DNA from: Klebsormidium nitens | Taxonomy: Eukaryota > Plantae > Klebsormidiophyceae | Assembly: GCA_000708835.1 (NCBI GenBank) | Contig: DF237642.1 | Location: 1-42,901 of the forward strand | DNA: 42,901 bases | Reading direction: 5' to 3' | Shown: positions 3,601 through 42,513 of the stretch, in pieces | Layout: every line of letters starts with the position of its first letter | Position numbering within the stretch: position 1 is the stretch's first letter | The notes under the pieces: model-generated | Databases searched by the model: none | What the model was told of the DNA's origin: nothing | Seen by the model: only the letters and a program-made list of their open reading frames with translations | Position numbers and translations under genes: made by a program

Positions 3601-3916
3601 CAAACTGAAACAAAATCTAACGTCTGCATACTGGGGATTGTCGTTGCGCGTAGCGCTAAAGTATACGGCGCACGCTAAAATATCATTGAGTGCCTTGGTC
3701 TCTTGCAGTGCTAGTGCGCACTGAAATGACGACCACTCGCGTAATTTTGCGTCAACCGGTGCTTTGCCCGTCATCATAATGAGAACCATCCGATAGATAA
3801 CGTGAGTTCCAATTATTATCCAATGATCTCGAGACGTCGACAGTTGTCACCATCAACTGCAAGAACTTATTATCAGGCCTTCAATTTCCATACACTGTCG
3901 TAGAAACAATCTCCTG

Positions 3917-4157
3917 AAAGGTGCGCCAAATAAGCGGCGCGCAACAGGGGTGCGCAAAAGGGGTGTGCAGAAAGGAGTGCGCAAAAAAGGGGTGCGCAAA
4001 GGGGTGCGCAGAAAAGGGGTGCGCAAGAATGGTGGGCTAAAAAACGGGCGTGCAAAAGGGGTGCGCAGAGGATGCGCCAGAAAAGGGGTGCACAAAAGGG
4101 TGCGCAAAAAGGATGCGCTAGAAAAGGGGTGCGCAAAAGGGGTGCGCCAGAATGGTG
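3917..4157. repeat. Second Satellite 1 array, same orientation as 1-650
   Basis: Same AAAAGGGGTGCGCA units, e.g. 3947-4020; abuts Satellite 2. Confidence 0.95.
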
Positions 4158-5277
4158 TACCGCGAAACTGAGAGGTATGCCGCGAAATCGGAGGTGTTGG
4201 CACGAAACTCAGAGGTATGCCGCGAAACATGCAGATGTGCCATGAAACTGGGAGGTATGTTGCAAAACTTGTAGGTGTGCCACCACAAAACTAAGAGGTG
4301 TGCCGCAAAACATGCAGGTGTGCCACGAAACAGAGAATGATGCCGCAAAACCTGCAGGTGTGCCACAAAACTGGCCCGAAGTAAGCCACAAATCACAGAG
4401 GTATGCCGCGAAACCTGTAGGTGTGCCACGAAACTCCTAGCTAGATACGTTGCGAAACATGCACGTGGGCCTCGAAACCAGAGGTATGTCGCAAAACTTG
4501 CAGGTGTGCCACGAAACTTAGAGGTAATCTGCGAAACCTGCAGATGTCCCACGAAAAAGTATAAGAGATAAGCGGAATTCAGAAATCCAGAAGTATGCCA
4601 CGAAACTGAGAGGTATGGCGCGAAACCTGCAGGTGCCACCGCGACACTGAGAGGTATGCCGCGAATTCTGCAGGTGTGCCGCAACACTGAGAGGTATGCC
4701 GCGAAATTTCAGGTGTGCCACGAAACTTAGAGGTATGCCGCAAAGCATGCAGATGTGCTACAAAACCGTCAAAGGTATGCCGAGCGCAATTTGCAAATTT
4801 GCCACGAAACTCAGAGGTATATGCCGCGAAACATGCAAGTGTGCTACGAAACTACGAGGTATGGGGTAAAATTTGCAAGTGTGCTTCGAAAAGGTCTAAG
4901 AGGTAAGCGACATTCAAAACTCTGGACAGAGGTATGCGACGAAACTTGCAGGTGTGCAACAAAATCCAGAGGTATGCAGCAACAGATGCATGTGTGTGGC
5001 ATATACCTCTGAGTCAGCGATATGCGGCAAAAATTGCGGGTCACTGCCACGAAATTCCGAAACTGAGGCGAAACTTGCAAGTGTGCAACGAACTTCGGAA
5101 ATTCAGAGGGATGCAACGAAATCTGCAGGTGTGCCACGAACTCAAAGGTATGCGATAATATTTGCAAGTATGCGACTGGTCAATCTGGTCAAAGTGAGCG
5201 GTATGCAACGAAACGTGCAAGTGTGCCACGAAACTCCGAGGTAATGTATGCGGCGAAACTTGCAGGTGTGTGCAGCT
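4157..5277. repeat. Satellite 2: ~20 bp monomers arranged as a ~40 bp dimer (GCCACGAAACTGAGAGGTAT + GCCGCGAAACCTGCAGGTGT)
   Basis: Two monomer types alternate visibly (e.g. 4596-4700); frequent CGAAAC to CAAAAC variants. Confidence 0.93.
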
Positions 5278-5336
5278 TTTAAAAGTACGAGGATCACTAA
5301 GCCTCTTGCGCAGCGTATGATGCACATCGCACACAG

Positions 5337-5423
5337 AAGGGCAAGGAGGAAGAGGGCCGACAGTGGGCCGAAAAGCTGCTGGATGCGTGGGAGGAGCGAC
5401 AGCTCAAGCGGCGGGATGAGTAG
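5337..5423 (+). pseudogene. Orphan terminal-exon-like fragment (KGKEEEGRQWAEKLLDAWEERQLKRRDE*)
   Basis: Follows ACACAG acceptor, G/C-ending codons, charged helical peptide ending TAG; no upstream exons found (satellite lies upstream). Not in the ORF track. Confidence 0.3.
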
Positions 5424-12000: not shown

Positions 12001-12691
12001 TTTTGACATCTTCCAAAGCAAGAGTTTCCTAGACAGAGTCCTCACATATGAAAGTCACATCCTGAGAGAAAGCACCATACCATCACCTTCACAACTCACT
12101 CGCCTTACATCAGCCATTCGGTTGATCTCTGAACAAATAGAGTTGTTCACACATAGCATGGATCAGCGACAGGGGAACATCAGCAGTTTTGATGCAGCAT
12201 ATGTAACAACCACTTCTGCAATCACTCACGAGGGTGCCGGTACTTGCGCTCCGTGCTCCAGAAAGAAGTTGATTGCGTTGTTGAGGTCGCCATTGTGAGC
12301 CTGTGCATGGACATTATAAAACTTGAGCTTGTAGGCAAGGGTTGCTCCTTCAAGGATCATTGCAAACTCTCTGAACAAAACGCGGAACAGAACACACAAA
12401 AGGGCGGGTATTATGTTTGGCCTGCAGGATTCAACCAAATATCAACATAGAGGACTGATGCAGGGGAGAAGGGTCGTCATGTCAAGAATGTTGCTGATCC
12501 TTCGTCTAAATCACCAGGTGAAACAGCTAGTGCATGTCGCTTCCATCTCACAACCTGCGAGATCAGACATATCCGCCCTCCTTCATGCATGCTTTGGCCG
12601 GAAGGAGGGGGTGGCTCACATTGAGCAGCTGATGTGCCGTCTCCTCGTCTGCGCCAGTCACCCCCATAAACATCTCAACCTGATCACCCAT
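6062..12691 (-). CDS. PUX: Plant UBX domain-containing protein (UBA-like + two UIM-like motifs + coiled coil + UBX; PUX8/9/13-type p97/CDC48 cofactor), 10 exons, ~632 aa
   Basis: Exons: 12691-12620, 12300-12230, 11657-11201, 10918-10660, 10131-9925, 9507-9413, 9029-8766, 7662-7489, 6951-6817, 6226-6062; all GT-AG, phases consistent. N-terminus MGDQVEMFMGVTGADEETAHQLLNAHNGDLNNAINFF (UBA-like); EEEMMRAALEASMKE and DEDLEKAISQSLK (UIM-like); VRMPDGSRKARR...NSFPRR...QEALFLE (UBX with FPR loop). Confidence 0.93.
6695..6830 (-). repeat. Degenerate 3-copy duplication of the PUX exon 9 donor junction
   Basis: Minus strand: CCCCGTGCAG|GTAGGA (real, 6817/6816), CCCCGTGCGA|GTGGGG (~6753), CCTCGTGCAG|GTGGGG (~6708), with recurring TGCATAT words. 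Confidence 0.65.
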
Positions 12692-13222
12692 GGCGCCCGC
12701 TGAAAGGGCGTCCAGACAAAAACGTCTACCTACGTTCGCTTTCTCACTTGTCGCTTCGGCCCTGGCAGAGGCTGTCTTCCAGACCCCCACCGCACCGTCT
12801 GAGCTTGCCAAGCATAGCTTATGGATTTTGTTCATAGACGTCTACATAAGATAGTCAGCGTTCTTAGCGCGCGTGCGCGCGTTGCTCCTCATGCAGAAGG
12901 GACGCACAGGATAAATCTGCACAGACTCGAAGTTGAAGTTGCAGCCTATGCAGCCTCAGGCTCAGGACAGATTTGCAACTTGCGTGGTAGGTGGAACGCT
13001 GCATCAGGCCTCCATTCACAGCCGAAACTGTAGGAACGTCCATTTTTGCTGCACTATAAAGGAAGCAGGCCTTTTCCTCTTTGGCACGGGCAGAATCGAG
13101 CCGAGCGCCGAGATATTGATCGTTGAATCGCGGCTCATTGAGGTTTTCTAATCTGTCTTGAAAGAAGCGCTTGCAACCTCTGGAAGCATTCCTTAAATCT
13201 GCCTAGAAACTGAGTAAGAAGC
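12692..13222. promoter_or_regulatory. Short divergent intergenic region (PUX / GONST), probable bidirectional promoter
   Basis: 531 bp between two outward-facing ATGs; no specific cis-elements identified. Confidence 0.5.
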
Positions 13223-17988: not shown

Positions 17989-20900
17989 TCAGGTCCTCCA
18001 GTCATTTGATTCTTCCAGTGAGGAATCGTCTTCCCACCATGTCGATGTCTGCGACAGGGACGAGAGGAGTTCAGAGCATATATTAGTGCTTACCAGCAGA
18101 TTAGAATGCACACGCGCATACATTGGGCAAACTAGCCAGCTCGCGGCTCGGTCTTGCCAGCGCCAGAACAAGAGACGACACTGGCCCATCGCACCCGCAC
18201 GGAACACATTCTTCCGAACAGAGGATTGGACTTGAGCCGATGCTCTGCAGCAGCAAAATCTCTTCTCAACGATTTTGTCATATGACGGGAAACCTCGTCC
18301 GGACACGGAATCCCACTCTCTGCCAAAGGCCTTCACATCCGAGGAAGAGCACGCACGCACCCACAATGCATCCGCACGCTAAAACTGTCCAGACAAACGA
18401 AAACCCCTTCCGGACACGCGATCTCGCTCTCGTCCAAAGGCGTTCGCATCCGAGGACTATCACGTGGAGACCAAAGTATTACCCGCCCGCTGATACTGTC
18501 CAGACAAGGACACTCCATCCCGGAAGCAAAAGTGTGCCCCAAAAAAGAATCACATACGCACCTAAATATTACCCGCTCGCCGCAGTCTGTGCTCACCTTA
18601 TACCCCCGCCGGAGGAACTGCAGCGCGCTGCCCTCCTCCTCCGTGTTGAGCCCGAGCGAGATGAGCAGCTCCTCCTTCACCTGCCCCAGCGTGAAGCGCT
18701 CCGCGTCCTCCGCCACGCACACGTACGTCCCGTCGCCCTGCTTCAGCATCACCTGCCACGGGCCTGCACAAATGCACGCAAAGACCTGTTATTTTTCTGC
18801 CTTTGTCTTCTCTTTATGTTCGTTTCTCTTTAATTGTCTCGATTCTTTCCGAAATCTATTCTGTGTTTCATCGCCCTGCTTCCGCATAACCTGCCACGGG
18901 CCTGCACAAATGCACGCAAAGACCCATTTATTTGTCTGCCTTTGTCTTCTCTTTGTGTTCGTTTCTCTTTAATTGTCTCGATTCTGTCAGAAATTTGTTC
19001 TGCGTTTCGTCGCCCTGCTTCAGCATCACCTGCCACGGGCCTGCGCCAACAACCGTGCATTTGTTTTCCGCTGTATTTGGCTTCTTTCGCCCTTTCCATC
19101 CGCTTCCTTCCCTTGCTTGATTACGCTTTCTGTCAGCAGGTCGCGAATCCTCGGGATGCTCGATTCTGCAGCGCAGCCGCCCAGATTGGGAACAAGGAAT
19201 ACAGTGCAAAATTAGCCCAAATTCGTCAGGACAGTCCTCGTTTCGGCTTCAAGCGTCGACTTTCCGGCAGTCTCAAAGAAGGCAGGAACGAAGCATCAGG
19301 AAGCGTAGAATTCCGACGTCGGAGATTGGACGGCAGCGCTGCGAGTCTTGGTCGTCCACCAGCACTCTCAATACTCCACGGTCCACCCACCAAACGTCGG
19401 CTCGCAGCAAAAGTATTCTGCAAACAACGCCAACACCGGTCCAGCCTTCAAATACCTTACCGGGGTATTGTCTGAGCAACGCGCCGCTGTAATTGATCAG
19501 GAAAGGAGCCACGTTGACGCTCTTGGAGTAGTCCCGTTGCCGGATGTAGAAGACGGGCTTGAAGGTGGATAGGAACCGGTACTGCAGGTCCTTCGGGGGG
19601 AAGCCTAGCAAGCCGAGATCGGACCTGGAGCAAAAAGTTGGCGAAGGTTCCGTTTGTGTGACTTTTTCGTCCTTTATAAGACCGCAAAGCTAACCTTAAG
19701 GAGACGTGTATGGAGAAACAATGGAGAAAGACGGCCTTGCAGAAAGCTAACAAAATACTGACGTGATTTCGGATCAGTGTTCGCGGTCGGACTGGGCGCT
19801 CATGGTGGGGGACCGACGGGACAATGGTACCCTAGTGAATTATCATTCTTCATTCGCATTTCTCGAAGAGGCGAGCTGACGAACCATGAAACTACCCCAA
19901 GTTTCCGAACAAGTCGCACCTCTCCAAACCCCTTTCAGACCGGTGGACCACGAGGTGGACCAGTGTGGGTCCGACCTGGTTGCAGGCACTTACGAAGCAG
20001 CCTTTGCTTTGTGCCATTATCTCGCTCTGCGAGGAGCTTCTATCCTCCCGTCCAAAGATTCCGGCCGTTTTCTCGAAACCATTCCAAAAGGACACAAAGA
20101 AGCCCGTCAGCGGTCAGCCTTTCTGCTCTCGATACTGGCAATCTTTGCTTCGAATCCGGCTCCCGCGCTGCCAAAGGTATCTTGACAGCAGGTTTCGCGT
20201 TTCCTAAAGCCCGACAACTTACCTCAACGTTTCTAACTCCAAGTTGAAGAGGATGACGGGCAGGTCTTTACAAAACGCCGTCTGCACAGAAAACAAACAA
20301 AAGCGGGCAATGTCTTCAGACATGAGAACCGTCGATTGACAAAACCGTCCCCTACCCGCGAAAATCGTTCGGGAGGCCAAAAGATCCCTGACTCAAAATA
20401 GAAACTAACATACAAACAAACAGTAGATTTGGTTCTTACTTCTTTACTTGTTTAGATATTCCTACTTAAAACCATAACAGCATAGATTTTAGCTGGCACT
20501 TCAAAACGCTAAAATTTCATTTGTATCCACCCGCAATTAACACTTCTACAAGGCGACTCACCGCGTAAGCCTCCACCCCTTTCAGCTCCACGGTACTGCA
20601 ATTGAGCACGATCTGCAGCTCCCCCTCCGCGGGGGGCCGCACGAGCGCCGCCACCGACTCGTCGATGTCGCTGAAGTCCAGGTCCAACGCGCTCGTCACT
20701 GCGCCCCAGAAGCCCTTTGAGGCGCCCCCCGGCGCGTCTTCTAGGGTGCCCAAACTTAGGCCAGAAGTCTAGAGAGAGGGAGGAAATTGAGGGTTTGAAT
20801 AGGTATACATTCTGGTTCAATAAGGCAGATGAAAGGCCGTCGAAAGAGCCTTGGAGGCGCCCTGGCGCGTCTTCTAGTGTGCCCGAACCTAGGCCCGACG

Positions 20901-31147: not shown

Positions 31148-33880
31148 AAAGAATCAAGGACTGGTGCGGAAGACTTGTCGGCCAGATATCTTATGAAGCT
31201 ATCATCTGTCCTGATGCGCCCAACCGTAATCTATGAGTTGAGAAGATTGGTGGAAGAAATCAAGGGCAGCCCGCTACATGGCGGCACCGGAGAGGATCAG
31301 TGGCAGAGACTGCAAATGCACCCCAGTCAGGCATACAAGCAGGCAAGTGCCAATCTCCGCGGCTTGTAGGCTATTGACATCTCCTGACGTCAGCTTGCTA
31401 GCTGCCTCTTGGCCAAGTATCGTGGTCCGTGCGCAATCTTTTTCTCGGGTTTTTCATGCTCGCCTGAAAGCTGCCAAACAAGGTACACTCCAATGTTTAT
31501 GACAGATGCTGAGTAGAGATATAGCTAGCCTCTGGAGTGTGAGATTTCTGCAGTAGTAAGTATAAGAACCTTTTCAGAGCTTCTATATCGGTCGGGTCAT
31601 TGGATCGCCAATGAGATGCGAAGTAACATGCATCAAGAATAATGAACCTCTTCTTTTTCTTTCCGTTCTTCATTTCGTGCTTTCATCTCCGTTGCTCATG
31701 CGCAGCTTTGAGGTTCTCCGAATTGACCAGGTCTTCTGTTTCATCTTTAAGCACAAGAGCTGGGCTAATCTACTGGTCGCAGTCCCTCAACCTCACCTGC
31801 TCGGTCCATTCTGCTTTCGATCCACTCCAAAGAAGTCTTCCTGTATTTGCAGGTGTTGGAACTGACAGCGAACAAGGAAGTGGTGAGAGAGCTGTTCGAG
31901 CTGCTCATCGAAGAAGCCGACACTCTAGACTCCCTTCCAGGAATCGTCGGCTGCTTGGAGCGGCTATACAGTATTCCACCATTCTCCAGACAGGTACACC
32001 TGATTTCTTCAAATTGTACTGCGTCTTGAGGTTGTAAACAAAGTGTTAGAGGACTATAAGTAACGATGTTGCTTTCAAACTCTCCTCTCACAAAATTACC
32101 GTCCCTCGATCTTGTCAACTGCTTCGACGAAACATCAGAAATCTGTTCATAAGATTCTGCAAGACAGCACGCTCCTCGGAATAACGAACTTCTACCAACC
32201 GCAAAGCCAAACGCGTCAGAGGTTTCGGTGCTGATCGCTGCAACTCAGAGGAAGTCGAAAATGAAGATTGAAGGTTCGCGTACGGCGTCATGCCCGACAC
32301 AGGAGCCGTGTCCTGTTGTGCTTTCTGTGATATCCACAACAAATACTTTATGAACACCTTGTGCCCCACTTGTCCATTCTGCCACAGCTTCTCTTGGTTC
32401 TTTGCAGTTCGACGCGTCGGACCTCGCCCCCTTGGTAGCTGAGTTCTTCGAAGACGTGTTTCCGCTGAAGGCCTCTCAGTTCCTCTATGGTGGTACCCCC
32501 CCCGAGAACGACTTCGCAGCAGACCAAAAGCATCGCGCATGGCAACTTTTCCTGTCGCAAACCTTCGATCTCACCAGCCACCTCTTCCGGCACACGCCCG
32601 ACTTCACAACCGAAGCCCTGCACAGCGGGCTGCTCTCCGCCCTCATCAAGTTCATCCCGTTCCGCGATACCGAGCCCTCTTCCGAGATCAAAGATACTCT
32701 TAGCCTCGTACTTTCCATTCTCCTGGTTCAAAACATCTGCAAAGCCGTCGCCGGGTTCTTCCGGGGCGATGCTCCGACCAGAGAATGGGCGTCCGAACAA
32801 GTCGGATCAGCGGAGTGGGCGTCCTGGATCGCGGACGTCCTCAGCTTCTTGCGGCGCGCGGCCGCGGCGGTACACGCGCCGGAGGCAGGGTTTTACTTGT
32901 CGGCCCTCATGGCACTGGTGCACGTCGTTTCCCTCCTCGCACAGGAATCTGTCGGCACAGAGATTTTCACGCCCGCGGTTGTGGCGCACGTTTCCGACGG
33001 TGTGAACGCGCTCTTCGAGGTGGACGTGGCACACCTCGAGGCGTTCAGAAGGATCTGGCATAGCACAGAGTACCGCCTGAAGCATCTCAACTCTCCGACG
33101 GAAACGGAAAACCGTCAGAAAGAGCAGAACCTCGAAGAAAAGAGCCGCGTAGCTTTTCAAGAGGCCATGGACCTGCTGACGAAGCTGAACGCCGGGGCGG
33201 GGGATGCGGAAAGTCTTGGAACTCTCATCACCAACAAGCTGCACGCTCTCATTCTCTCGGAGCTGGCCTTCGCTCAAGTTGACAAGTACAAGCGCGTCAT
33301 TGCGGAGGGAGCCCCGGACGTCATGATGCGCGTGCTGGAGCGCGGCGCGGCCGCGCTGCCGCGCGGCCAGTTGACGACCCAAGCCAGGATGGCTCTGAAC
33401 GTTCTCATGGTCATGATAGGTTGCGGCGGGCCCGCGGACCTGCGCGGCCGCGTCGCGCAATATGACATGCCGTACGCGGAGGGTTTGGAAGAGATCGGCC
33501 CGCGGCTCTTGGCGTGGGCGGCAAGCGACTACGGGGCGCTTGACCGGTACGACCGGGAGAACCTGACGCAGTGTCTGTTCGCGGCGTTTGAGACGGTCCC
33601 CGGGCGGAAGTACCGGCACCGGTACGCACTGGTGGAGCTGGCGGTCCGGACCATCGAGGAGGACGAGGTGCACGGGGGAAGCGTCACCGGGAAGGCCTGG
33701 AACGGCCTCGCGTCGCTCGCGCTCTTCCTCCCGGAGTTTTCCCCCGCTCTCGTTGCAAGATTCGAGGCGTTCGATGCGCTGCCAGAGGAGGAGCGGCTGG
33801 CAGTTGGCGCGACCTTACGTTTCCACCCAACCCAGCCCCGGTCTCTGACCGGCTACCCGGATATCGGCCTTTCGGCATAG
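31148..33880 (+). CDS. Uncharacterised helical (ARM/alpha-solenoid-like) protein; 5' structure only partly resolved
   Basis: Large terminal exon 32408-33880 (TTTGCAG acceptor, 490 sense codons, GC-rich codon bias); upstream exon 31853-31993 in phase; candidate exons 31148-31342 (GC donor), 30916-30981, 30533-30544. Fold guess from Leu/Ala-rich amphipathic pattern only. Confidence 0.7.
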
Positions 33881-33956
33881 CCTATGCGCCATCAGGGACC
33901 CAAAACGTTACCGTACTCCATCTAGGCCGTTACCACTCCGTCCGATTCACTGCACT

Positions 33957-33980
33957 ACACACACACACACACACACACAC
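33957..33980. repeat. (AC)12 microsatellite
   Basis: Directly visible. Confidence 0.97.
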
Positions 33981-35191
33981 AGCAACTTAGCGTGCAGTCT
34001 CCTCAGTCTTGCACGATCCCTTGAAGTTGGTTGCCAGGCTTCAGCAAGCTGGCGATCAGCGTGACCCATGTGGGACACAAGCATGCACGTGTCATCCAAT
34101 GAGTGAAGGGTGACTAGCACGGGGGGGATCGAAACGAAGAGAGCGCTGCATCATAGTGAAGCCGCCTGCGTCGGATGCTGATGCTGCACCATGACCAGGT
34201 AAGCTGCTCGGGCGCATGCCTCTGAGTGTGTGCGGGGTCATGCAATGTGCCGCTGCTGCTGTTGTTCACAGAGTCCAAACTGTCCAATGCGTTTGGAATG
34301 AGCCAGGGGTTCCGTCCTCAGGCTTGCAATTGGCTTTGCTGGGGTGTTTTCTGTGTTTCTTGTGAAACAATCGAATCACTCAGCAACACATCAGAATTCA
34401 GCCTGCTCGACAGTGCCAATCATTGTTAGCTTCCGGTTGACACCTTTGGGTAAGGTAGATGTTTTCAAGGCCTGACAGGTGCTGCAGGCATGAGTGTCAA
34501 TCGATTGAAAATGAGCTGGAAATCGAGTCCAGCACCAAAGCTGCCAGACTTGCGGCAATTCTGTTATGAGGTGATGGGCTTAAACGCATGGCCCCTCAAA
34601 TGGCTTTGAGACTGCCAGTCTTGCCTCCATGCTCGAGTATACTCCAGTCAACTTGGGTGCGTAGCTAGGGCTGCAAGACTTGAGTGTGTTTCTGGGTGCG
34701 CTGTGTTGAAACTGGGACGCCAAACACATAGCGGTGTTGCTGAGCTGGTGCACTGGTAGAGGTTGCCTAATAGTCCGAAGGCAACCTCCCTCCGGTTTTG
34801 CAGGTGCGCGCAAAGCTGGTGCCCACCTTGAACCATCATGGCAAGGAGCCGGCTTTGTGGCCGTAGCAAGTCTGACCATCGCGACTGCCAGGCAGTCCGC
34901 TTTGCACGTGCTGCAGAATACAGGGAAAGGATCCATATTGGTGCTGAAAAGCAAGCAGTTATCATCGCCGCTGTCAATGCTCGGTGCCATTCTGCAGAAC
35001 CTGCCCCTCGACGTCGACGGGGGCAGCAGTCGAAGAAGGAAAAGAAGGAGAGAATTGAGAAGCCCCGTGAGGTACCGCGCCGGTGGTGCTTCACTGCTGC
35101 TGAGCAGAAGGCGAAGCGGCATGATGCTGAAGTACTGACAAGTGCCGTGGAGTGTGGTGCAGAACACGGTGAGTGAAGGGCAGCTCAGGGC

Positions 35192-35815
35192 TGTACCAGA
35201 TTTCAATGTCTTTCTTTCTAAGAACTAAGAGGCCACTTTCTGGTACAGCTCCGTCAACTATAACATCTTCGGAAACTCGGATGGGATGGGTGGGTGTCGG
35301 GTGACATCTTCGGAAACTTGGTGGAATGGTTGGGTGCCCCACAAGCAGTGGTGTACCATGCTCCAATGTCTTTCTTTCTCAGAAGTAAGAGGCCACTTTC
35401 TGGTACATCGCCGTCAACTATAACATCTTCGGGAACTTGGTGGAATGGTTAGGTGCCCCACAAGCAGTGGTGTACCACGTTCCAATGTCTTTCTTTCTAA
35501 GAAGTGAGAGGCCACTTTCTTGTACAGCACCGTCAACTATAATATCTTTGGAAACTTGGTGGAATGGTTGGGTGCCCCACAAGCAGTGGTGTACCGAGAA
35601 TCAATGTCTTTCTTTCTAAGAAGTGAGAGGCCACTTTCTGGTACAGCGCCGTCAACTATAATATCTTCGGAAACTCGGGTAGGATGGACCTCCTTACAAG
35701 CACCGGAGTACCAAGAAAACACGTGTTTCTTTTTTAGAAGTGAGAGGCCACTTTCTGGTACATCGCCATCAACTATAACATCTTCGGAAACTCGGTGGAA
35801 TGGCCGCCCCCACAA
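35192..35815. repeat. Tandem array A: 119 bp unit, ~5 copies
   Basis: AATGTCTTTCTTTCT anchor at 35205, 35365, 35484, 35603 and a degenerate copy ~35721; core AGAGGCCACTTTCTGGTACAGCGCCGTCAACTATAACATCTTCGGAAACT near-invariant; first interval carries ~41 extra bp. Confidence 0.95.
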
Positions 35816-36045
35816 GCCGCGTCTTCCATTCTGCGGCTTCAGCTGAACTATTCGCTCTAAAACCGCATGTTTGGTCTTGGGGTGTGCAGATCGATACCAA
35901 TGAACAGTATTACTTGCTGTGGGCATGTGTGGGTTGAGGCCTTGGGCCGTCATCAGACTGATTTTTGAGGGGCGCAATCAGCCTGTTCTCTAAATCGCTA
36001 TCGACCTGCTTTTAGGGACGTGATTAGGCAGACGTTGGGCACCAC

Positions 36046-36250
36046 TTGCTGGGTTGCCGGAAACTGGCTGGTGTGGCTGGATTGTTGGAAAGTTCCTGGT
36101 ATGGCCGGGTTGCCGGAAAGTGCCTGCTCTGGCCGGGTTGTTGGAAAGTTCGGCCTGGTATGGCCGGGTTTGTGGAAATTGTCTGGTATGGCCAATCTGC
36201 TGGAAATTTCCTGGTATGGCCGGATTGCCGGAAAGTGCCTTGTATGGTTG
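36046..36250. repeat. Tandem array B: ~28 bp unit (TGGCCGGGTTGCCGGAAAGTTCCTGGTA), ~7 copies, plus a detached partial copy near 36405-36425
   Basis: Directly visible. Confidence 0.9.
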
Positions 36251-36499
36251 CCCCCAGCAAGCAGAGGGGTCAATGACGGAGGCGTACCACGAAGCAATGT
36301 GTTTCTTGTAAAACTAAGCGTTTCTTTTGTGGTACTCAGGAGTGGGGTCCCAGGTTGGGGGAGCAGGTGCCCCCACGTAGGGATCAACGGCAAATCCAAG
36401 AGATTGCCCGGAATGGCCGGGTTGCAATGTGTAGTCCGGCTAGCCGTAAGCCAAGCCGGCCGCCCCAATCATTCAGAACCAAGTCATTCAGAGGTATGT

Positions 36500-36860
36500 G
36501 CAAGCACTGTAGTATCACCCTGCTGAACCACACCTTGTCGAAGGTTCCTAGGGAATACACGTTTTCGCCTCTGAAACTTGTTTGCAACATGTGGTCTGGC
36601 CAGCCGTAAAGCATACAGAAAGCATGTGGTCAACACTTTAATGTCATCCTGTTGGACCACACCCTGTTGACGCTTCTCAGGGAATACACGTTTCGCTTCT
36701 TGCAACGTGTGGTCCAGCCAGGCGCAAGCCCGGCCAGCATGTAAAAGCCTATGCGGCAAGCACTGCAGTGTCACTTTGCGTGACCACACCTTGTCAATGG
36801 TTTTCAGAAACCCGGGTTTTGTGCTACGAAGAGCCGTGTGCAAGGTGTGGTCCAGTCATT
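36500..36860. repeat. Tandem array C: ~126-130 bp unit, 3 diverged copies
   Basis: AAGCACTG...ACCACACCTTGTC...GCAACATGTGGTC motifs recur at ~36502, 36632, 36758. Confidence 0.8.
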
Positions 36861-36942
36861 TGTGGGTGGCTCCTTTTGGGATGGCAGGGGAGCAGTGCAA
36901 ACGGGCGATGGTTTTTAATGCAATAGCGCTTCCTCTCCGCAG

Positions 36943-37325
36943 GTGGCAGGAGGGTCGTAACAATGCGGCGCTTTTCAGGAGCCCCATGGGCACTGGGAAG
37001 TCGACAAACAACCGTGCTATCCTCGAGGAGGCGCCCCGTCCGCGCGCTGTCCTCATGACCACGTATTGCCAAACACAAGCCAGCGATGCAGCCGGGAAGA
37101 ACCAGAATCTGCGCGCTACGGCGATCTCAAAACCAGATGCGGGCGCGATGTCGGGGAGCGCTTTGTCGAGCCCCTGGCCGACAGGGAGCTCTACCCGCGT
37201 GTCATCCGCCAGGTCGACAGCCTGCCCGGGCTCCTTGACGAAGATCCGCTCGTCCCGGCCTTTGACCTCGTCATTCTTGACGAGAGCGAGTCAATCCTCC
37301 CGCACCTCTCGGCAGACACCCTCTC
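36943..37325 (+). pseudogene. Frameshifted fragment of a UL9-like / replication origin-binding SF2 helicase (NCLDV-type)
   Basis: Walker A FRSPMGTGKS (AGG at 36977), then RAVLMTTYCQTQA; frameshift at ~37097-37100; second frame gives RVIRQVDSL and Walker B FDLVILDESESILPHLSADTL (GAC at 37279). Motif order and spacing fit the origin-binding-protein family; truncated after motif II. Confidence 0.78.
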
Positions 37326-37614
37326 GAGCGGGTTCGACAGCTGGTCGACCCCTTAATCTTGTGCTTCGTAAGGAAGGGCATCAACCTGCCCACGACGGGG
37401 CCAGAGGAACGCGGGTACAGGATGGCGATGGGGAAGAATGTCGGACGGGTTCCAAGGCTCGGGTTTGAGGAGACGTGACCAGCTCAAAACCGGTTGGGTC
37501 AAGGTCCAGAACCCCCTATGACTGCGTGGAGCGGAGATCGCTTTCTCGCAGAATCCGCGCGCGCACGTGGCCTCTGCATCTGCATCTGCTCTGACTCAGC
37601 CACATCTCCTGCAG

Positions 37615-37764
37615 GATTGTCCCGTTCGTTGCCGGGGGCCCAGCCAACCTCAGCACGGGCAGGATGCTGGACTTCGTCAGTGTGACGTCACCGAACGGCC
37701 CCGATGGTTACCTCACCTATTCCGGTAGCCTAACGCAGCCGCCCTGCACCGAGGGCGTCACCTG
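37615..37764 (+). pseudogene. Orphan exon of an alpha-carbonic anhydrase with its upstream intron end
   Basis: CTGAC...CTCCTGCAG acceptor, then IVPFVAGGPANLSTGRMLDFVSVTSPNGPDGYLTYSGSLTQPPCTEGVT, matching the alpha-CA Y-x-Y-x-GSLT-x-PPC-x-E-x-V-x-W motif; breaks exactly within the Trp codon. Not in the ORF track. Confidence 0.85.
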
Positions 37765-39946
37765 TTCAGCGGAATCGGCCTTCTGATGGAGCGGGACAAG
37801 GAGACTAAGTACTTTTGGACCGGGACCGGACGCAGTAGGAATCAAAGGGAAAGTTGGTCGCTAACCAGGGCAATAACCAGACTTCACCCCTGGTTAGTGG
37901 GCAAGTAACCATGCCAACAAGGCTGGTTATGCCCTGGACCTGGTTGTTGGACATGTAACCAGGCCGTAAACAGCTGTTAACCAGCCCCGTTTATCGGGCG
38001 AAAGCCCCTGTGTCGATAGCTGACGTAGTGCGATTCAGGATTCCAACGGTGTCCCCGGTCCTGATCCAAGAAGTACTGACTCTCCCTGTCCCCGCTCGAA
38101 TAGCTTACGTCAGCGTGTGATATCTAGCACGCGCGCTGACTTTTCTGGTGTCCGCACTAAGCAATGAGCGGCGTTCGTGCATGAAAGGCCAGGTGTGTGA
38201 CGCCTCCGTTGGCTTATTCTGGCTGAAGGATTTGTGTGTGGGTATCCAAACGCTGCAAACAAGTTAGATTCTGGTCTGATATTACTTGCCGTCTTTGTAG
38301 ACTGCCCGAAATCGCATTCCAAAGATCAACACTTTTTGGAACCTGCTTGGGAACGTGCCCCGGTTGAAAGAGCTGGATTTGTAAAGGAACGAGTGGGCTT
38401 GTCTCGCCCTTTTCTCAGCAACAACCATCCTAAATTGCTGCTGCAGTGCCTTCTTACTTTCTTCTATCGTACGTGCTCTCGCAGGTTCATCACGACCAAG
38501 CCCCGGTACGCTTCCCAGGCCCAGATCATCCTTCTTATGAGCGCCACAGCTGGTGTGTCCGGGGCAGCCCGGACGAACAACCGGCCAACTCAGCCTCTGT
38601 ACAGCAGAACCATCTTCAGGATCGGCCTGACATAGAGTGCGAGTTCGAAACGCGAATCCTCCCGTCCCATTGGCCACGGGTCATTAGAGGTATAGCCCCT
38701 ATGGGATACTGGTTGATTGCAGTCCGGAAGACTTATTCTCGTCCAGACCGTCATCCGGGCAACTTGGCAAGGTTTCCAAACGCATATGAATCGTTCTAGA
38801 GAGATTATAACGAGTTTTTTGACGAGAACAAAACCCAAACTGATAATCGAGCTCTTTTCAAGTCAGAGAAAACCCAATCTACTTTCTCTTAAATGCTGTG
38901 ATGCCATTGGACATGATGGATTTGACTGTCAGAGCTTAAGGAATGCATTCGCAGCCCACCATCTTTGGTTGGCGTACACGGCTCGCGGCGAGACAAAAAA
39001 TGGAACTTCCGCGGGCCCCATCTTTGACAGAGCCAAGATACTAGCAAAAGCATGAACTTTGTAAAGTCTTCATATGAATCTCTCTTAAATTGGCCGGCTT
39101 CTTCAGGACCATACTCCCAGCTTGCGTAATGGTTTTCTTATATCCTGGTGTTAGGATACGTACAGCGCCATCAATCGCATGTAAGTAGTACATGGGCTAG
39201 GAGAGAATGTTACTTGCTGATCAGAGCCGGGCGCGTTGAAGGCCGGCTGGCCGCGCTCGGGAATCACGCCTGTTGCAGTTAAACGGATGTACATTCATGC
39301 ATGCACGATAAATGGGCAAGAGGACTTGATAGGAAAGGGCGTGTATGTATATGATCATTCATTGAACTGTAGTATTGTAGAAAACATGCACTGTAGAATT
39401 CTTGTAGAAAACACTGTAGAATTCTTTGAGGTAACCTAGGAGGGGTAGACATTGTGAAAACGTAGCAGCAACGCAACCCTATTGATTCGATAGAGTATTG
39501 GGGCACGAAAGCCTGTTGCGAGAATTAGACCCTCTCTAACCCGCTCTACGCCCGACACATGAACTCGGTCCTTTGAATACAAGCTGATTAAATCAATCAA
39601 CTGTGAACCATGCCGCATGCACGGGCCATGATCTGGGCTGCTTCAAACTGAGTCTCGCCATACTTACAGTCGAAAGTATGGCACTTATCCTTACATCGGT
39701 CGATTCCAAACAATCATGTCATTGCAACTACGCTAAACTGGTCCAGGGCTGGTTACAACGAAGTGCGTTGTTGATGGCTGAGTATGACTGTCTATGTAGA
39801 ACCACGAACATACCCTTCTGTGTTGTGAGATTCCAGGTGCACCCAGTCATGATGACTCCAACTCCTTCAGGACCATGGCGTCACTAGTATTTTGTTGCGT
39901 GTGCAGGCAGGGACCCTAAGTACAGCAACTCAATGCACCGCCAGAT

Positions 39947-42513
39947 CTAAGCGAACCCTGCTGCTTCCACCTTGGCCCACAGCCCCTGTTGCTGCAGAAG
40001 CTCTCGGTGGAACTCCAGCCACCTTCTCAAGGACGCCTCTTGACCAGGGTAGGGCCACTGCTTCCAACCAGCAAGAGAGGGCAAGACGTAATCGACGTAC
40101 AGGCAGACCAGATAAGGCTCATCCTTGCTTACGGCTCTATTGTATACAAATTCCTTCACGTCAAGATTCCCCTGGATGTGAACGCCCTCGAAGCACCCCC
40201 GGTGAGCCATGTTGCCCTCAACGCCCCCACTCATGCCACGCCAGCTGGACGCGCTGGTCTTGTCCTGGCGGCCGTTTGTGAGGACCTTATGGCCGAAGCT
40301 GATGCCCCGGATGTCGGCTTTCATCATGTGCTGCACATAAGCAGCCAACTCTTTCACAAAGTGCTCTGTAGTGGGTCAAGTTGGCCACATGCGATCAGAA
40401 CAACCAATCAGCGCCATGTCTCTTGAAATCCAGCTTCCTGGATCCGGGTGAAGATACAGTGACCATTCAGAGCAGCTGAGGCAACAGAAAGTTGCACAGC
40501 AAGTATGCTCAGAGCCAACCTACAAAGCCGGCCTTTCTGAAGACGCACTGGTAATTAACGACGAACAGCCAGCAAAATCCATCTCTGTCTAGAGACCCGC
40601 AGTCCAGCAGCTTGAGTAGGGAATTAAATCACAAAGGGAACAATCGAGCTCGCCAAATATACACCACAAAACCATCCTCTTCAAAGCAGAGGCGTCACAA
40701 CCACAAAAGAGGCTCAACAAGCTTGTTCTGCTCAAGGGCCACCTACAACAAGCAGCTGCTAAGGCGTTGGGTATCTTGCGAGCTGGATGGCATGATCAAC
40801 ATCTAACCCACCTTGTTGATGGCGTAAGCCAGCACTGGCCGGTCCGCCACTGTCACTGGGTGCCCCAGGCAAATCGGGACATCCTTGAGGTCCACCTCCC
40901 CTGCACAAAGCAAAGACACTGAGCATGTGCAAATCTGGCACAGCCGTCATGGGGAGCTGTTCCCACAATTTACTGCCGGCTGATGCGAAAGGCTAACTAG
41001 GTTGATTGGTCCGATCAAGATCTGCAGGCGCAACCCCAAGCAGAACTGTAGGAGCAGAAACATCTTACTTTATAAGCAGAACTTTTCAAAACGCAGGTCT
41101 TAGAAAGCAACCGAAGAAACAACACCATATGCAGGATTGTAAGGGGTACTGCTATGCAATCAGCAAGCAACTAGAAAGAAGAGAAGAGCTTTTGTCAGAT
41201 ATCAGAAATCTCTGGAAACCCCTCGCATAGAGACCACATGCCAGATGGGTGTCCACCATTTTCCTGCTCACCAGGTGTCCCAGAGAGGAAGATGGGCAGG
41301 TGCTCGTCCAATTCTGTAGAGGGATCGCCTGATGGGACGAAGAATCTGTTCTGGCTGTTCGGCCTGGCTTTGCTGGGGTCAATCTCCACAACGAGAAGTA
41401 GTACATCGACGTGCTTCTCGAACAGCTCTCCATCGGCGGGATTTTTGTAGTAACGGGCTTGGAGGGGATTTCCAGACTTGTCAGGGCTCGAGGGGGGACT
41501 ACGAACTTCGGTATTTAGCAGGTTATACTTGGTGCGATCCTCCTCGCCGTGAACTGCGATCCTGTACCTCATTCCTGAGGCCCGTGTGAGAGCACATCCT
41601 GACAAAATACTGTCGGACCAGAAGCCGCGCTCCAACACCTCATCGCTGGTGCTAGTGTTATGTGCCGCACTCAGGTGGTACTGATAGTACTTGTCACCTG
41701 CAGCAGGATGTACTTCCTCAGAGGTGCAATCTTCCCTTCCTAGTGCAGGGTACAGAAGGCAGTGCTCTTTCTCAATCCCATTTCTGCAAGCCTCAACCTC
41801 AACACCTATGTCCTGGAAATCTGAAGTTTACTGCCTCAAAGAATCTCGACTTCCTGCATTTTCTGCATTGAAATATAGGAAAACATGTCAAGACCAGCTT
41901 AGCCCTTCTTTTATGGTAACAGAATGCCAATAAAGAGCTCCATTGAATGGATGACCATCTTTGACGCTGCCTCATGCTCTGACTACCCATACATATGACC
42001 ACAGACGAGATCCCACATCAGACACAAAAGCATACCTTGTGCCTGGAGGTTGAAGATGGGGATGCTCTTGAGGTATGGGGAGACTGCAAAGGTTGAGCCA
42101 TAGCCAGAGAAAGACCTTATGCACCCAACCGGCAGGTCTCCGAAACCTGTGCTCGTTCCAACCTGCTGCAGAATGTTCCGGTCCAAGTCCGACAGATATG
42201 CAAGTGACGGGGTTCTCAGGCGCCCTAAGTTATCAAAGGTAAGGATCTGGCGGTAGTTCTTCAGGTCGACGGGTCCAGTGAGATCGATGCTTTTGATAGG
42301 CATCAATCGCTCTAGCCCTGTGATCTTATCGTCCTCCTCTTTGAGACCCAATTCCGACCAACTTGCCACCAGACCTTCCACTTGTCCCCTGACCTCTGGA
42401 TTCTCGACAACATCGCTGCTGCATTCATCTGCAGGAAACTCAACCGATCTGAAGCTATCTGCAGCCACCTTGGACACCTTCTGGGGGGTCACCGGCTCCT
42501 GGTCGAAGTCCAT
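39947..42513 (-). CDS. Uncharacterised multi-exon protein (possibly decaying); no family recognised
   Basis: Phase-consistent exons 42513-42036, 41697-41272, 40900-40812, and a last exon 40365-39947. The link between 40812 and 40365 could not be resolved without a stop; the start is provisional. Confidence 0.55.

What the first reader, a model, noticed from the sequence alone, without database searches (positions are those of the whole stretch)
36943..37325. Giant-virus-type UL9-like helicase fragment carrying a spliceosomal acceptor
Seen: RSPMGTGKS, TTYCQTQA, RQVDSL and LVILDESESIL in the correct order, with one frameshift, preceded by CTTCCTCTCCGCAG. Established: this motif set typifies origin-binding SF2 helicases of herpesviruses (UL9) and nucleocytoviruses, not core plant genes. 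Inference: endogenous viral element whose parent may have gained introns in the host before this piece was copied.
Basis: partly seen in the sequence, partly recalled or inferred. Interest (0 to 1): 0.75.

Follow-up and report, generated by a model that had tools for sequence, protein, structure and literature searches.

The report
Spliced-in scrap of viral-type primase-helicase
This is a broken 530-base piece of a virus-type DNA-copying gene that the alga splices into a mixed, likely non-coding RNA; the piece itself is dead, but its parent is a many-copy, intron-containing gene family that likely belongs to an undescribed mobile DNA element.

Summary
Observation confirmed and extended. 36943-37476 is three collinear pieces (one frameshift, one ~178-codon deletion) of a UL9-like SF2 helicase, 72-76% identical to Klebsormidium nitens 'replication origin-binding' proteins. 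The acceptor is used: 6 of 6 RNA-guess runs from 6 studies join 36493 to 36943; the DNA run does not. The piece lies in a four-exon chimeric RNA beside a decayed carbonic anhydrase copy and cannot encode a helicase. The intron is inherited: a paralogue keeps it in DNA and splices it in RNA, and 11 of 12 metagenomic relatives stop at that codon. Full-length parents are PrimPol-SF2 fusions at 10 annotated K. nitens loci, one clade, about 30% identical to the nearest intronless virus-like contigs. No viral hallmark gene lies in the window and no close relative is in IMG/VR, so a giant-virus insertion is not shown. Best reading: gene capture from a resident virus-derived mobile family. The parents' neighbourhoods could not be seen. 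The scan has not noted this family before, though it noted intron-bearing viral genes in this genome.

The parts
34196..35168 (+). Exon 1 of the chimeric transcript (5' end approximate); holds most of a 123-codon ORF (34838-36380 after splicing) with no Pfam match
   Evidence: RNA-guess contigs X3, X5, X18; ORF; Pfam
35169..36339 (+). Intron 1, GT..AG, with 119-nt and 28-nt tandem repeats
   Evidence: joint in 3 of 3 RNA-guess runs, absent in the DNA run; repeats
36340..36493 (+). Exon 2
36494..36942 (+). Intron 2, GTATGT...CTTCCTCTCCGCAG; its last ~25 nt and the acceptor are shared with a paralogous helicase gene
   Evidence: joint in 6 of 6 RNA-guess runs; paralogue DNA contig matches from 36918
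36943..37103 (+). Helicase piece 1: start of the parent's helicase exon, Walker A (RSPMGTGKS) and motif Ia (TTYCQTQA); frameshift near 37101-37104
37104..37326 (+). Helicase piece 2: RQVDSL and Walker B (DESES); ends at an internal deletion of ~178 codons (parent residues 1288-1464 of GAQ86657.1)
   Evidence: tblastn 75% over 77 aa, E 2e-28; paralogues run on past 37326
37329..37476 (+). Helicase piece 3: tail of motif VI (RVR) and the start of the C-terminal region; truncated
   Evidence: tblastn 80% over 49 aa, E 9e-19; paralogues run on past 37476
37615..37764 (+). Alpha-carbonic anhydrase exon copy (YSGSLTQPPCTEGVT); no joint seen at its acceptor, and its donor reads TT instead of GT
   Evidence: PF00194 E 1.9e-5, below the curated cut-off; paralogue 82% identical in DNA and RNA
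38193..38484 (+). Intron 3, from a cryptic GT donor inside the old carbonic anhydrase intron
   Evidence: joint in 3 of 3 RNA-guess runs; junction letters
38485..38961 (+). Exon 4: likely last carbonic anhydrase exon (NNRPTQPLYSRTIF, stop near 38635) and 3' end (approximate)
   Evidence: one RNA contig of a paralogue joins 37764 to 38490; motif identity recalled; no Pfam hit for this exon alone

Best explanation
The stretch is a frameshifted, internally deleted piece of an intron-containing PrimPol-UL9-like helicase gene, spliced through its inherited acceptor into a four-exon chimeric RNA, and likely copied at DNA level from a virus-derived, multi-copy mobile element resident in the Klebsormidium nucleus. 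Shown: family, three pieces, use of the acceptor, the same intron in paralogues, multi-copy parents with intact primase motifs, and a second captured scrap (two carbonic anhydrase exons with their intron) downstream. Inferred: both scraps kept intron DNA, so capture was by DNA copying (break repair or template switching, or carriage by a transposon), not retroposition. An upstream transcription unit then recruited the orphan acceptor. The RNA makes no helicase and is a likely target of nonsense-mediated decay. Also inferred: the intact parent protein would bind and unwind the element's own origin and prime its synthesis, as the AEP-SF2 proteins of mimivirus R8, ASFV pF1055L and some mriyaviruses are proposed to do, which would explain the copy number.
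For: Identity 72-76% to five K. nitens models over 128-174 columns; the window row sits inside the Klebsormidium clade, 100/99. Splice joint in 6 of 6 RNA-guess runs from 6 studies, 0 of 1 DNA run. In the spliced RNA the Walker A frame is open for only 26 codons upstream and has no ATG there; no ORF over 40 aa holds any of three test motifs. One paralogue matches from 36918 in DNA but from 36943 in RNA in 3 of 3 runs. 11 of 12 unnamed primase-half ORFs that reach the site stop exactly at residue 1159 (...LNK), as a phase-2 donor followed by a stop predicts. Six have a helicase half on a contig of the same length. Ten annotated K. nitens loci, 6 on scaffolds of 13.3 kb or less. Three AEP motifs present in 15 of 15 clade proteins checked, two with substitutions. 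K. nitens subfamilies interleave with metagenomic ones. Paralogue contigs are present in all 6 RNA-guess runs. No close relative in IMG/VR in 3 targeted scans.
Against: The neighbours and ends of the full-length copies were never seen: no genome is held, and the one metagenome scan returned only 21-35% relatives. No transposase, recombinase, terminal repeat or target-site duplication is tied to the parent, so 'mobile element' rests on copy number, scaffold size and tree shape. No convincing terminal inverted repeat flanks the chimeric locus. Five of the eight K. nitens models that show Walker A have MDTAKS rather than MG[ST]GKS, and several models are split or truncated, which fits decay as well as activity. 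K. nitens is known to hold several giant-virus inserts (PMC5294986, passages). The runs are only guessed to be RNA and are contigs, so strand and level are not shown.
Confidence: 0.55

Rival explanations
1. The parent is a gene of an intron-bearing, nucleus-replicating virus (nucleocytovirus, mriyavirus-like or Polinton-like) that integrated repeatedly in Klebsormidium. The intron arose in the virus lineage, and the window holds a stray piece of such an insert.
For: AEP-SF2 fusions of this kind are viral in the literature (PMC11253617 and 10.64898/2026.08.29.747986, passages). Fold hits are mimivirid, marseillevirus, ASFV and herpes proteins. The sister clade is intronless contigs with D5-like primases and anti-repressor-like genes. 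Mirusviruses carry many spliceosomal introns (PMC12768974, passages). One intron shared over 30-40% protein divergence fits a viral radiation. K. nitens has multiple distinct NCLDV inserts (PMC5294986).
Against: No close relative in IMG/VR (pattern scans, limited sensitivity). If accession order follows scaffold number (my assumption), none of 9 known parent scaffold numbers matches the 4 NCLDV contigs named in the text of PMC5294986; its Figure S5 was not readable. Endogenous NCLDV genes are described as untranscribed (PMC12768974, discussion), while paralogue contigs appear in all 6 RNA-guess runs.
Confidence: 0.27
2. One ancient viral gene transfer was domesticated, gained introns in the host and became an ordinary duplicated host gene family. 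The window piece is a partial segmental duplicate.
For: Single long-stemmed clade with support 100; conserved intron and primase motifs; host-like GC3 of 0.69-0.79, close to the carbonic anhydrase exons at 0.76-0.80; paralogues in RNA-guess contigs.
Against: Ten loci, many truncated, 6 of 10 on small scaffolds, with a young subfamily at 76-90% identity carrying an altered Walker A. That looks like repeat turnover rather than a stable family.
Confidence: 0.12
3. The chimeric RNA is kept for a function, for example as a source of small RNAs or a decoy that restrains the parent elements.
For: It is spliced the same way in 6 studies and carries 85%-like sequence of an expressed family.
Against: Both captured scraps are about 15-18% diverged from their paralogues and broken; no Rfam match in 33000-40000; no conservation outside this genome was tested or seen.
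Confidence: 0.06

Closest known systems
AEP primase-SF2 helicase fusions: mimivirus R8, ASFV pF1055L, mriyavirus SF2_hel, SmDNAV primase-helicase (PMC11253617; 10.64898/2026.08.29.747986; passages read)
   Same: Same architecture in the full-length parents: AEP motifs (KPYLDLE, SLHLV, DQSVY), human PrimPol hit E 5e-10, then a PF02399 helicase; best fold hits are mimivirid origin-binding proteins, TM 0.66-0.69.
   Different: Only 18-22% identical to the top named viral proteins. The parent is split by a spliceosomal intron and is multi-copy in an algal genome. The window copy lacks the primase and most helicase motifs.
Herpesvirus origin-binding protein UL9
   Same: Best PDB matches by sequence (E 1e-26) and by fold (HSV-1 OBP, E 7e-16).
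   Different: Orthoherpesvirus UL9 lacks an intact AEP domain (PMC11253617); 15-17% identity; origin binding is untested here.
Giant endogenous viral elements of K. nitens (PMC5294986; PMC12344493; passages read)
   Same: Virus-type replication gene in the same algal genome; introns in decaying endogenous nucleocytoviruses are already described (PMC12768974, citing Moniruzzaman et al. 2020, which I did not read).
   Different: The window is host-like (multi-exon chorismate synthase, DUF1995, UBA) with no viral core gene; the piece is transcribed and spliced; the parent's link to these inserts is not shown.
Gene-fragment capture and exonisation (Helitron and Pack-MULE-type chimeric transcripts; recalled, no call)
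   Same: Scraps of two unrelated genes with intron DNA kept, spliced into one likely non-coding RNA.
   Different: No element ends found; one scrap is virus-type.

Membership tests
UL9-like / replication origin-binding SF2 helicases (PF02399) | Profile match above the curated cut-off | tested here: met
   All 11 close-clade proteins scanned score 23-76 bits against a cut-off of 20. The window piece alone scores 11 bits but is 72-76% identical to the five nearest.
UL9-like / replication origin-binding SF2 helicases (PF02399) | Closer to origin-binding proteins than to cellular DEAD/DEAH/Ski2 helicases | tested here: met
   Foldseek PDB: HSV-1 OBP E 7e-16 against Brr2-type 3e-8; model of P0040, pLDDT 90.3.
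UL9-like / replication origin-binding SF2 helicases (PF02399) | Complete helicase core (motifs I-VI) in the window copy | tested here: not met
   Frameshift, loss of parent residues 1288-1464, truncation at 37476.
AEP-SF2 primase-helicase (R8/pF1055L/mriyavirus SF2_hel type) | N-terminal AEP domain with catalytic motifs in the parent | tested here: met
   Motifs in 15 of 15 clade proteins checked; PrimPol PDB hit. Absent from the window itself.
AEP-SF2 primase-helicase (R8/pF1055L/mriyavirus SF2_hel type) | Primase, ATPase and origin-binding activity | not testable with these tools
   Needs an assay.
Giant endogenous viral element (Nucleocytoviricota) | Cluster of viral core genes (MCP, A32 ATPase, polB, D5, VLTF3) at the locus | tested here: not met
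   None among 137 Pfam scans of window frames; short exons and the repeat-rich 1-900 and 3800-5400 stretches were not scanned.
Giant endogenous viral element (Nucleocytoviricota) | Full-length parents lie in such clusters | not testable with these tools
   No genome held; close-clade contigs not retrieved.
Giant endogenous viral element (Nucleocytoviricota) | Phylogeny nests within a named nucleocytovirus family | tested here: inconclusive
   Sister to unclassified intronless high-GC contigs (SH-like 99), apart from most giant-virus-looking contigs; midpoint root, FastTree, no named references.
Polinton-like virus / mriyavirus insert | Capsid and packaging ATPase genes, terminal inverted repeats, integrase or HUH endonuclease | tested here: inconclusive
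   Not in the window; parents' context unseen; Pfam is weak for such capsids.
Spliceosomal (GT-AG) intron inherited from the parent | Acceptor used in RNA, and same position in paralogues | tested here: met
Helitron / Pack-type gene-capturing transposon | Element termini and target-site signature around the captured scraps | tested here: inconclusive
   Only short chance-level inverted repeats in 33850-39500; no empty site available.

The most novel reading that the evidence does not exclude
Klebsormidium algae host an undescribed class of capsid-less, self-copying nuclear DNA elements whose replicase is a spliced, transcribed PrimPol-UL9 fusion taken from large DNA viruses. The class has old subfamilies shared between host strains or species, and it sheds exons that the host splices into new chimeric RNAs.
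Probability: 0.3. Interest if true: 0.75.

Novelty: new variant of a known kind. Interest (0 to 1): 0.38.

Why it matters
The piece itself is a dead fragment and matters little, beyond being a clean case of a virus-type exon bringing its own working acceptor into a host transcript. Its parent matters more. In the passages I read, AEP-UL9 primase-helicases are described only from viruses, and introns in endogenous giant-virus genes are read as signs of silent decay. Here one intron is shared across copies 25-40% diverged in protein sequence, primase motifs are kept, and paralogues are spliced in RNA. That points either to a new kind of self-replicating mobile element or to an intron-bearing nuclear virus of streptophyte algae. 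Either is testable at once on the public K. nitens assembly.

Tried and rejected
Cellular DEAD/DEAH origin: rejected. Chance motifs: rejected. Assembly artefact: unlikely; DNA contigs cover 35756-39600 without differences and 6 RNA-guess runs carry the same letters, though the DNA run may be the source. The 37326/37329 deletion as a spliced intron: not supported; it is in the DNA, and the parent's letters at its start are not GT. Other parent pieces in the window: none (tblastn). Whole genome: not held. No listed run is on record as RNA; this is no evidence either way. Contig depths were not used to rank expression. Close relatives in viral contigs and genome contigs: none. The broader alignment found 21 viral loci at 22-29% and 80 metagenome loci at 21-35%. 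Neighbours of the nearest outside relatives: 114 ORFs scanned in Pfam and 21 in PHROGs gave no capsid, so they stay unclassified. Atlas search of the parent's first 300 residues: no usable hit. Link to the earlier KDZ-transposase note: sequence look-ups with P0037 and P0036 found 0 look-alike windows, so no link is shown. Rfam: none. Paper searches that found no description of this family in Klebsormidium. The library lacks most subscription journals; Figure S5 of PMC5294986 is not held as text and may list parent scaffolds.

Full report
Observation. The four motifs and the pyrimidine-rich acceptor are at the stated place. Walker A begins at 36977 and motif Ia at 37058 in one frame; RQVDSL (37207) and Walker B (37267) are in a second. 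tblastn of 14 relatives shows a third collinear piece, 37329-37475, in a third frame. The feature therefore runs 36943-37476, with a frameshift near 37101-37104 and a deletion of parent residues 1288-1464 (numbering of GAQ86657.1). By established SF2 motif order this removes motifs III-V and half of VI. A profile of 10 close relatives gives 108.8, 60.8 and 41.7 bits, against at most 5.8 in 20 shuffled windows.

Host and setting. The best hits are Klebsormidium nitens proteins at 72-81% identity. The DNA run that holds the locus assembles to 103-104 Mb, the size given for the K. nitens nuclear assembly (PMC4052687, passages). The host is thus most likely K. nitens; no whole genome was held. Pfam scans of 137 window frames found chorismate synthase exons, DUF1995, a UBA domain and carbonic anhydrase, and no viral core gene. 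Short exons and two repeat-rich stretches near the start were not scanned.

The acceptor works. Six runs guessed to be RNA, from six studies, all join 36493 to 36943 (GT..AG); the one DNA run, laid twice, does not. The three runs laid on the wider stretch also show introns 35169-36339 and 38193-38484. The transcript has four exons from about 34200 to 38960. Exon 3 holds the helicase scrap and then a carbonic anhydrase exon (37615-37764; PF00194 E 1.9e-5), whose paralogue is 82% identical in DNA and RNA. No joint was listed at that exon's own acceptor, and its donor reads TT. A cryptic donor at 38193 leads to exon 4, which looks like the last carbonic anhydrase exon (motif recalled; one paralogue contig joins 37764 to 38490). 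In the spliced RNA the Walker A frame is open for 26 codons upstream with no ATG. Twenty ATGs precede it, and the first ORF over 100 codons (123 codons, no Pfam hit) stops in exon 2. No helicase can be made. Limits: these are contigs, the RNA label is a guess, and strand and level are not shown.

The intron is inherited. One paralogue matches the window from 36918 in the DNA run but only from 36943 in all three RNA-guess runs. There it continues upstream into sequence that encodes the end of the primase half, as in KFL_005490050. Of 25 hits to the primase half, nine unnamed proteins reach this site; eight stop exactly at ...LNK (residue 1159) and one diverges at 1148. Three more cluster members also stop there: 11 of 12. 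A phase-2 donor followed by TAA or TGA predicts exactly this. Helicase halves start just after the site, six of them on contigs of the same length as a primase half. P0003 has unrelated sequence before the conserved W that ends like an acceptor. The other 16 hits end earlier or are K. nitens gene models; four end at residue 978, which suggests a second intron in a divergent subfamily (inferred).

The parent. Full-length copies are AEP primase-SF2 helicase fusions. AEP motifs are present in 15 of 15 clade proteins checked, PF02399 passes its cut-off in 11 of 11, and PDB sequence hits are replication origin-binding proteins (E 1e-26) and human PrimPol (E 5e-10). A model of P0040 (pLDDT 90.3) matches Indivirus, Bodo saltans virus and Samba virus proteins best (TM 0.66-0.69, 18-22% identity), and HSV-1 OBP ahead of cellular helicases. 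The same architecture is described for mimivirus R8, ASFV pF1055L, some mriyaviruses and SmDNAV (PMC11253617, 7 passages; 10.64898/2026.08.29.747986, 5 passages). Atlas look-alikes include clusters of Nucleocytoviricota, Preplasmiviricota, phages and Mucoromycota, so the family does not mark giant viruses alone. Ten K. nitens loci carry models; six lie on scaffolds of 13.3 kb or less and several are split or cut. Five of the eight that show Walker A have MDTAKS; the window has the canonical form.

Phylogeny. From 94 helicase cores, 73 were kept after removing near-copies at 93%. The Klebsormidium-type proteins form one clade (SH-like 100) on a long stem, sister to 20 intronless or unannotated proteins (99), seven of them on GC-rich contigs. 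Eight of nine contigs I labelled giant-virus-like by size or gene content lie on the other side of a well-supported branch (FastTree, midpoint root, no named references). K. nitens subfamilies interleave with metagenomic ones (P0041 with P0005; P0060 with P0007), and the window row falls inside the clade without a supported nearest copy. The sister contigs carry D5-like primases and anti-repressor-like genes but no recognised capsid, so they are virus-like and unclassified. Scans for close relatives in IMG/VR and prokaryote genomes found none.

Mechanism. Shown: a dead three-piece fragment, an inherited and used acceptor, a chimeric transcript, and a multi-copy spliced parent family. Inferred: DNA-level capture, because both scraps kept intron sequence; similar ages, because both are about 15-18% diverged from the paralogue contigs listed; exonisation by an upstream transcription unit; no protein product. 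For the parent I favour the replicase of a resident virus-derived mobile element (0.55) over a gene of an intron-bearing nuclear virus (0.27) or a domesticated family (0.12). The choice rests on indirect signs only, because the parents' neighbourhoods could not be read.

What is known. K. nitens holds several distinct NCLDV inserts (PMC5294986, 12 of 14 passages, supplement text searched without hits; PMC12344493, 12 of 27 passages; PMC11244446, 8 passages). Introns in decaying endogenous nucleocytoviruses and in active mirusviruses are described (PMC12768974, 12 of 26 passages). Nine searches found no account of this family in Klebsormidium, though the proteins are labelled as origin-binding in NCBI and UniRef. 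Earlier scan notes on this genome describe a KDZ transposase paired with a viral primase-helicase, an intron-laden D5 gene, and introns in giant-virus genes. Sequence look-ups found no overlap with this family, and I did not test their claims.

Verdict. The fragment is ordinary debris; the parent family is the lead. Interest 0.38; new variant of a known kind.

Noticed in passing
window:37615-38635: Decayed duplicate of the 3' half of an alpha-carbonic anhydrase gene: two exons plus a 720-nt intron, donor reading TT, cryptic donor at 38193 used instead; paralogue 82% identical.
   Followed up: yes
window:32354-33880 (+): 508-codon stop-free frame, GC-rich, with no real Pfam match (CDC45 E 0.25); a long single-exon orphan in an intron-rich genome.
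   Followed up: partly
P0001 residues ~14-30 and P0036 residues ~225-240: Two parent models have a 2A-like stretch (LLxxGG[IV]ExNPG followed by W, not P) upstream of a long acidic region; resemblance recalled, function doubtful.
   Followed up: no
P0001, P0035, P0036, P0037, P0038: A young K. nitens subfamily (76-90% identical) has Walker A MDTAKS instead of MG[ST]GKS yet keeps the primase motifs; unexplained.
   Followed up: partly
P0064, P0065, P0066, P0070: Four divergent metagenomic primase ORFs lose homology at parent residue 978, suggesting another intron in that subfamily.
   Followed up: partly
window:36781-36864 and 33800-33900: Short repeats found in several other DNA contigs; the first lies in intron 2 after three ~129-nt repeats at 36505-36820.
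   Followed up: no
window:39430-42612 (-): Multi-exon gene on the minus strand with three frames of 142-210 codons and no Pfam match; a contig in one RNA-guess run begins at 39430.
   Followed up: partly
window:1-660 and 3900-5270: Degenerate 13-15-nt and 20/40-nt tandem arrays; many introns in the window carry 90-140-nt tandem repeats.
   Followed up: no
window:24556-28709 (+): Multi-exon chorismate synthase; DUF1995 exons at 18336-19689 (-); UBA-like exon at 12566-12841 (-).
   Followed up: partly
L001, L002, L003, L004: GC-rich, gene-dense metagenome contigs (12-28 kb) with an intronless AEP-UL9 gene, D5-like primases and mostly unmatched ORFs; nearest outside relatives of the Klebsormidium clade, unclassified.
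   Followed up: partly
L082, L084, L085 (one 526-kb viral contig): Three dispersed copies of the AEP-UL9 gene in a single giant-virus contig, so the gene also multiplies inside viral genomes.
   Followed up: no
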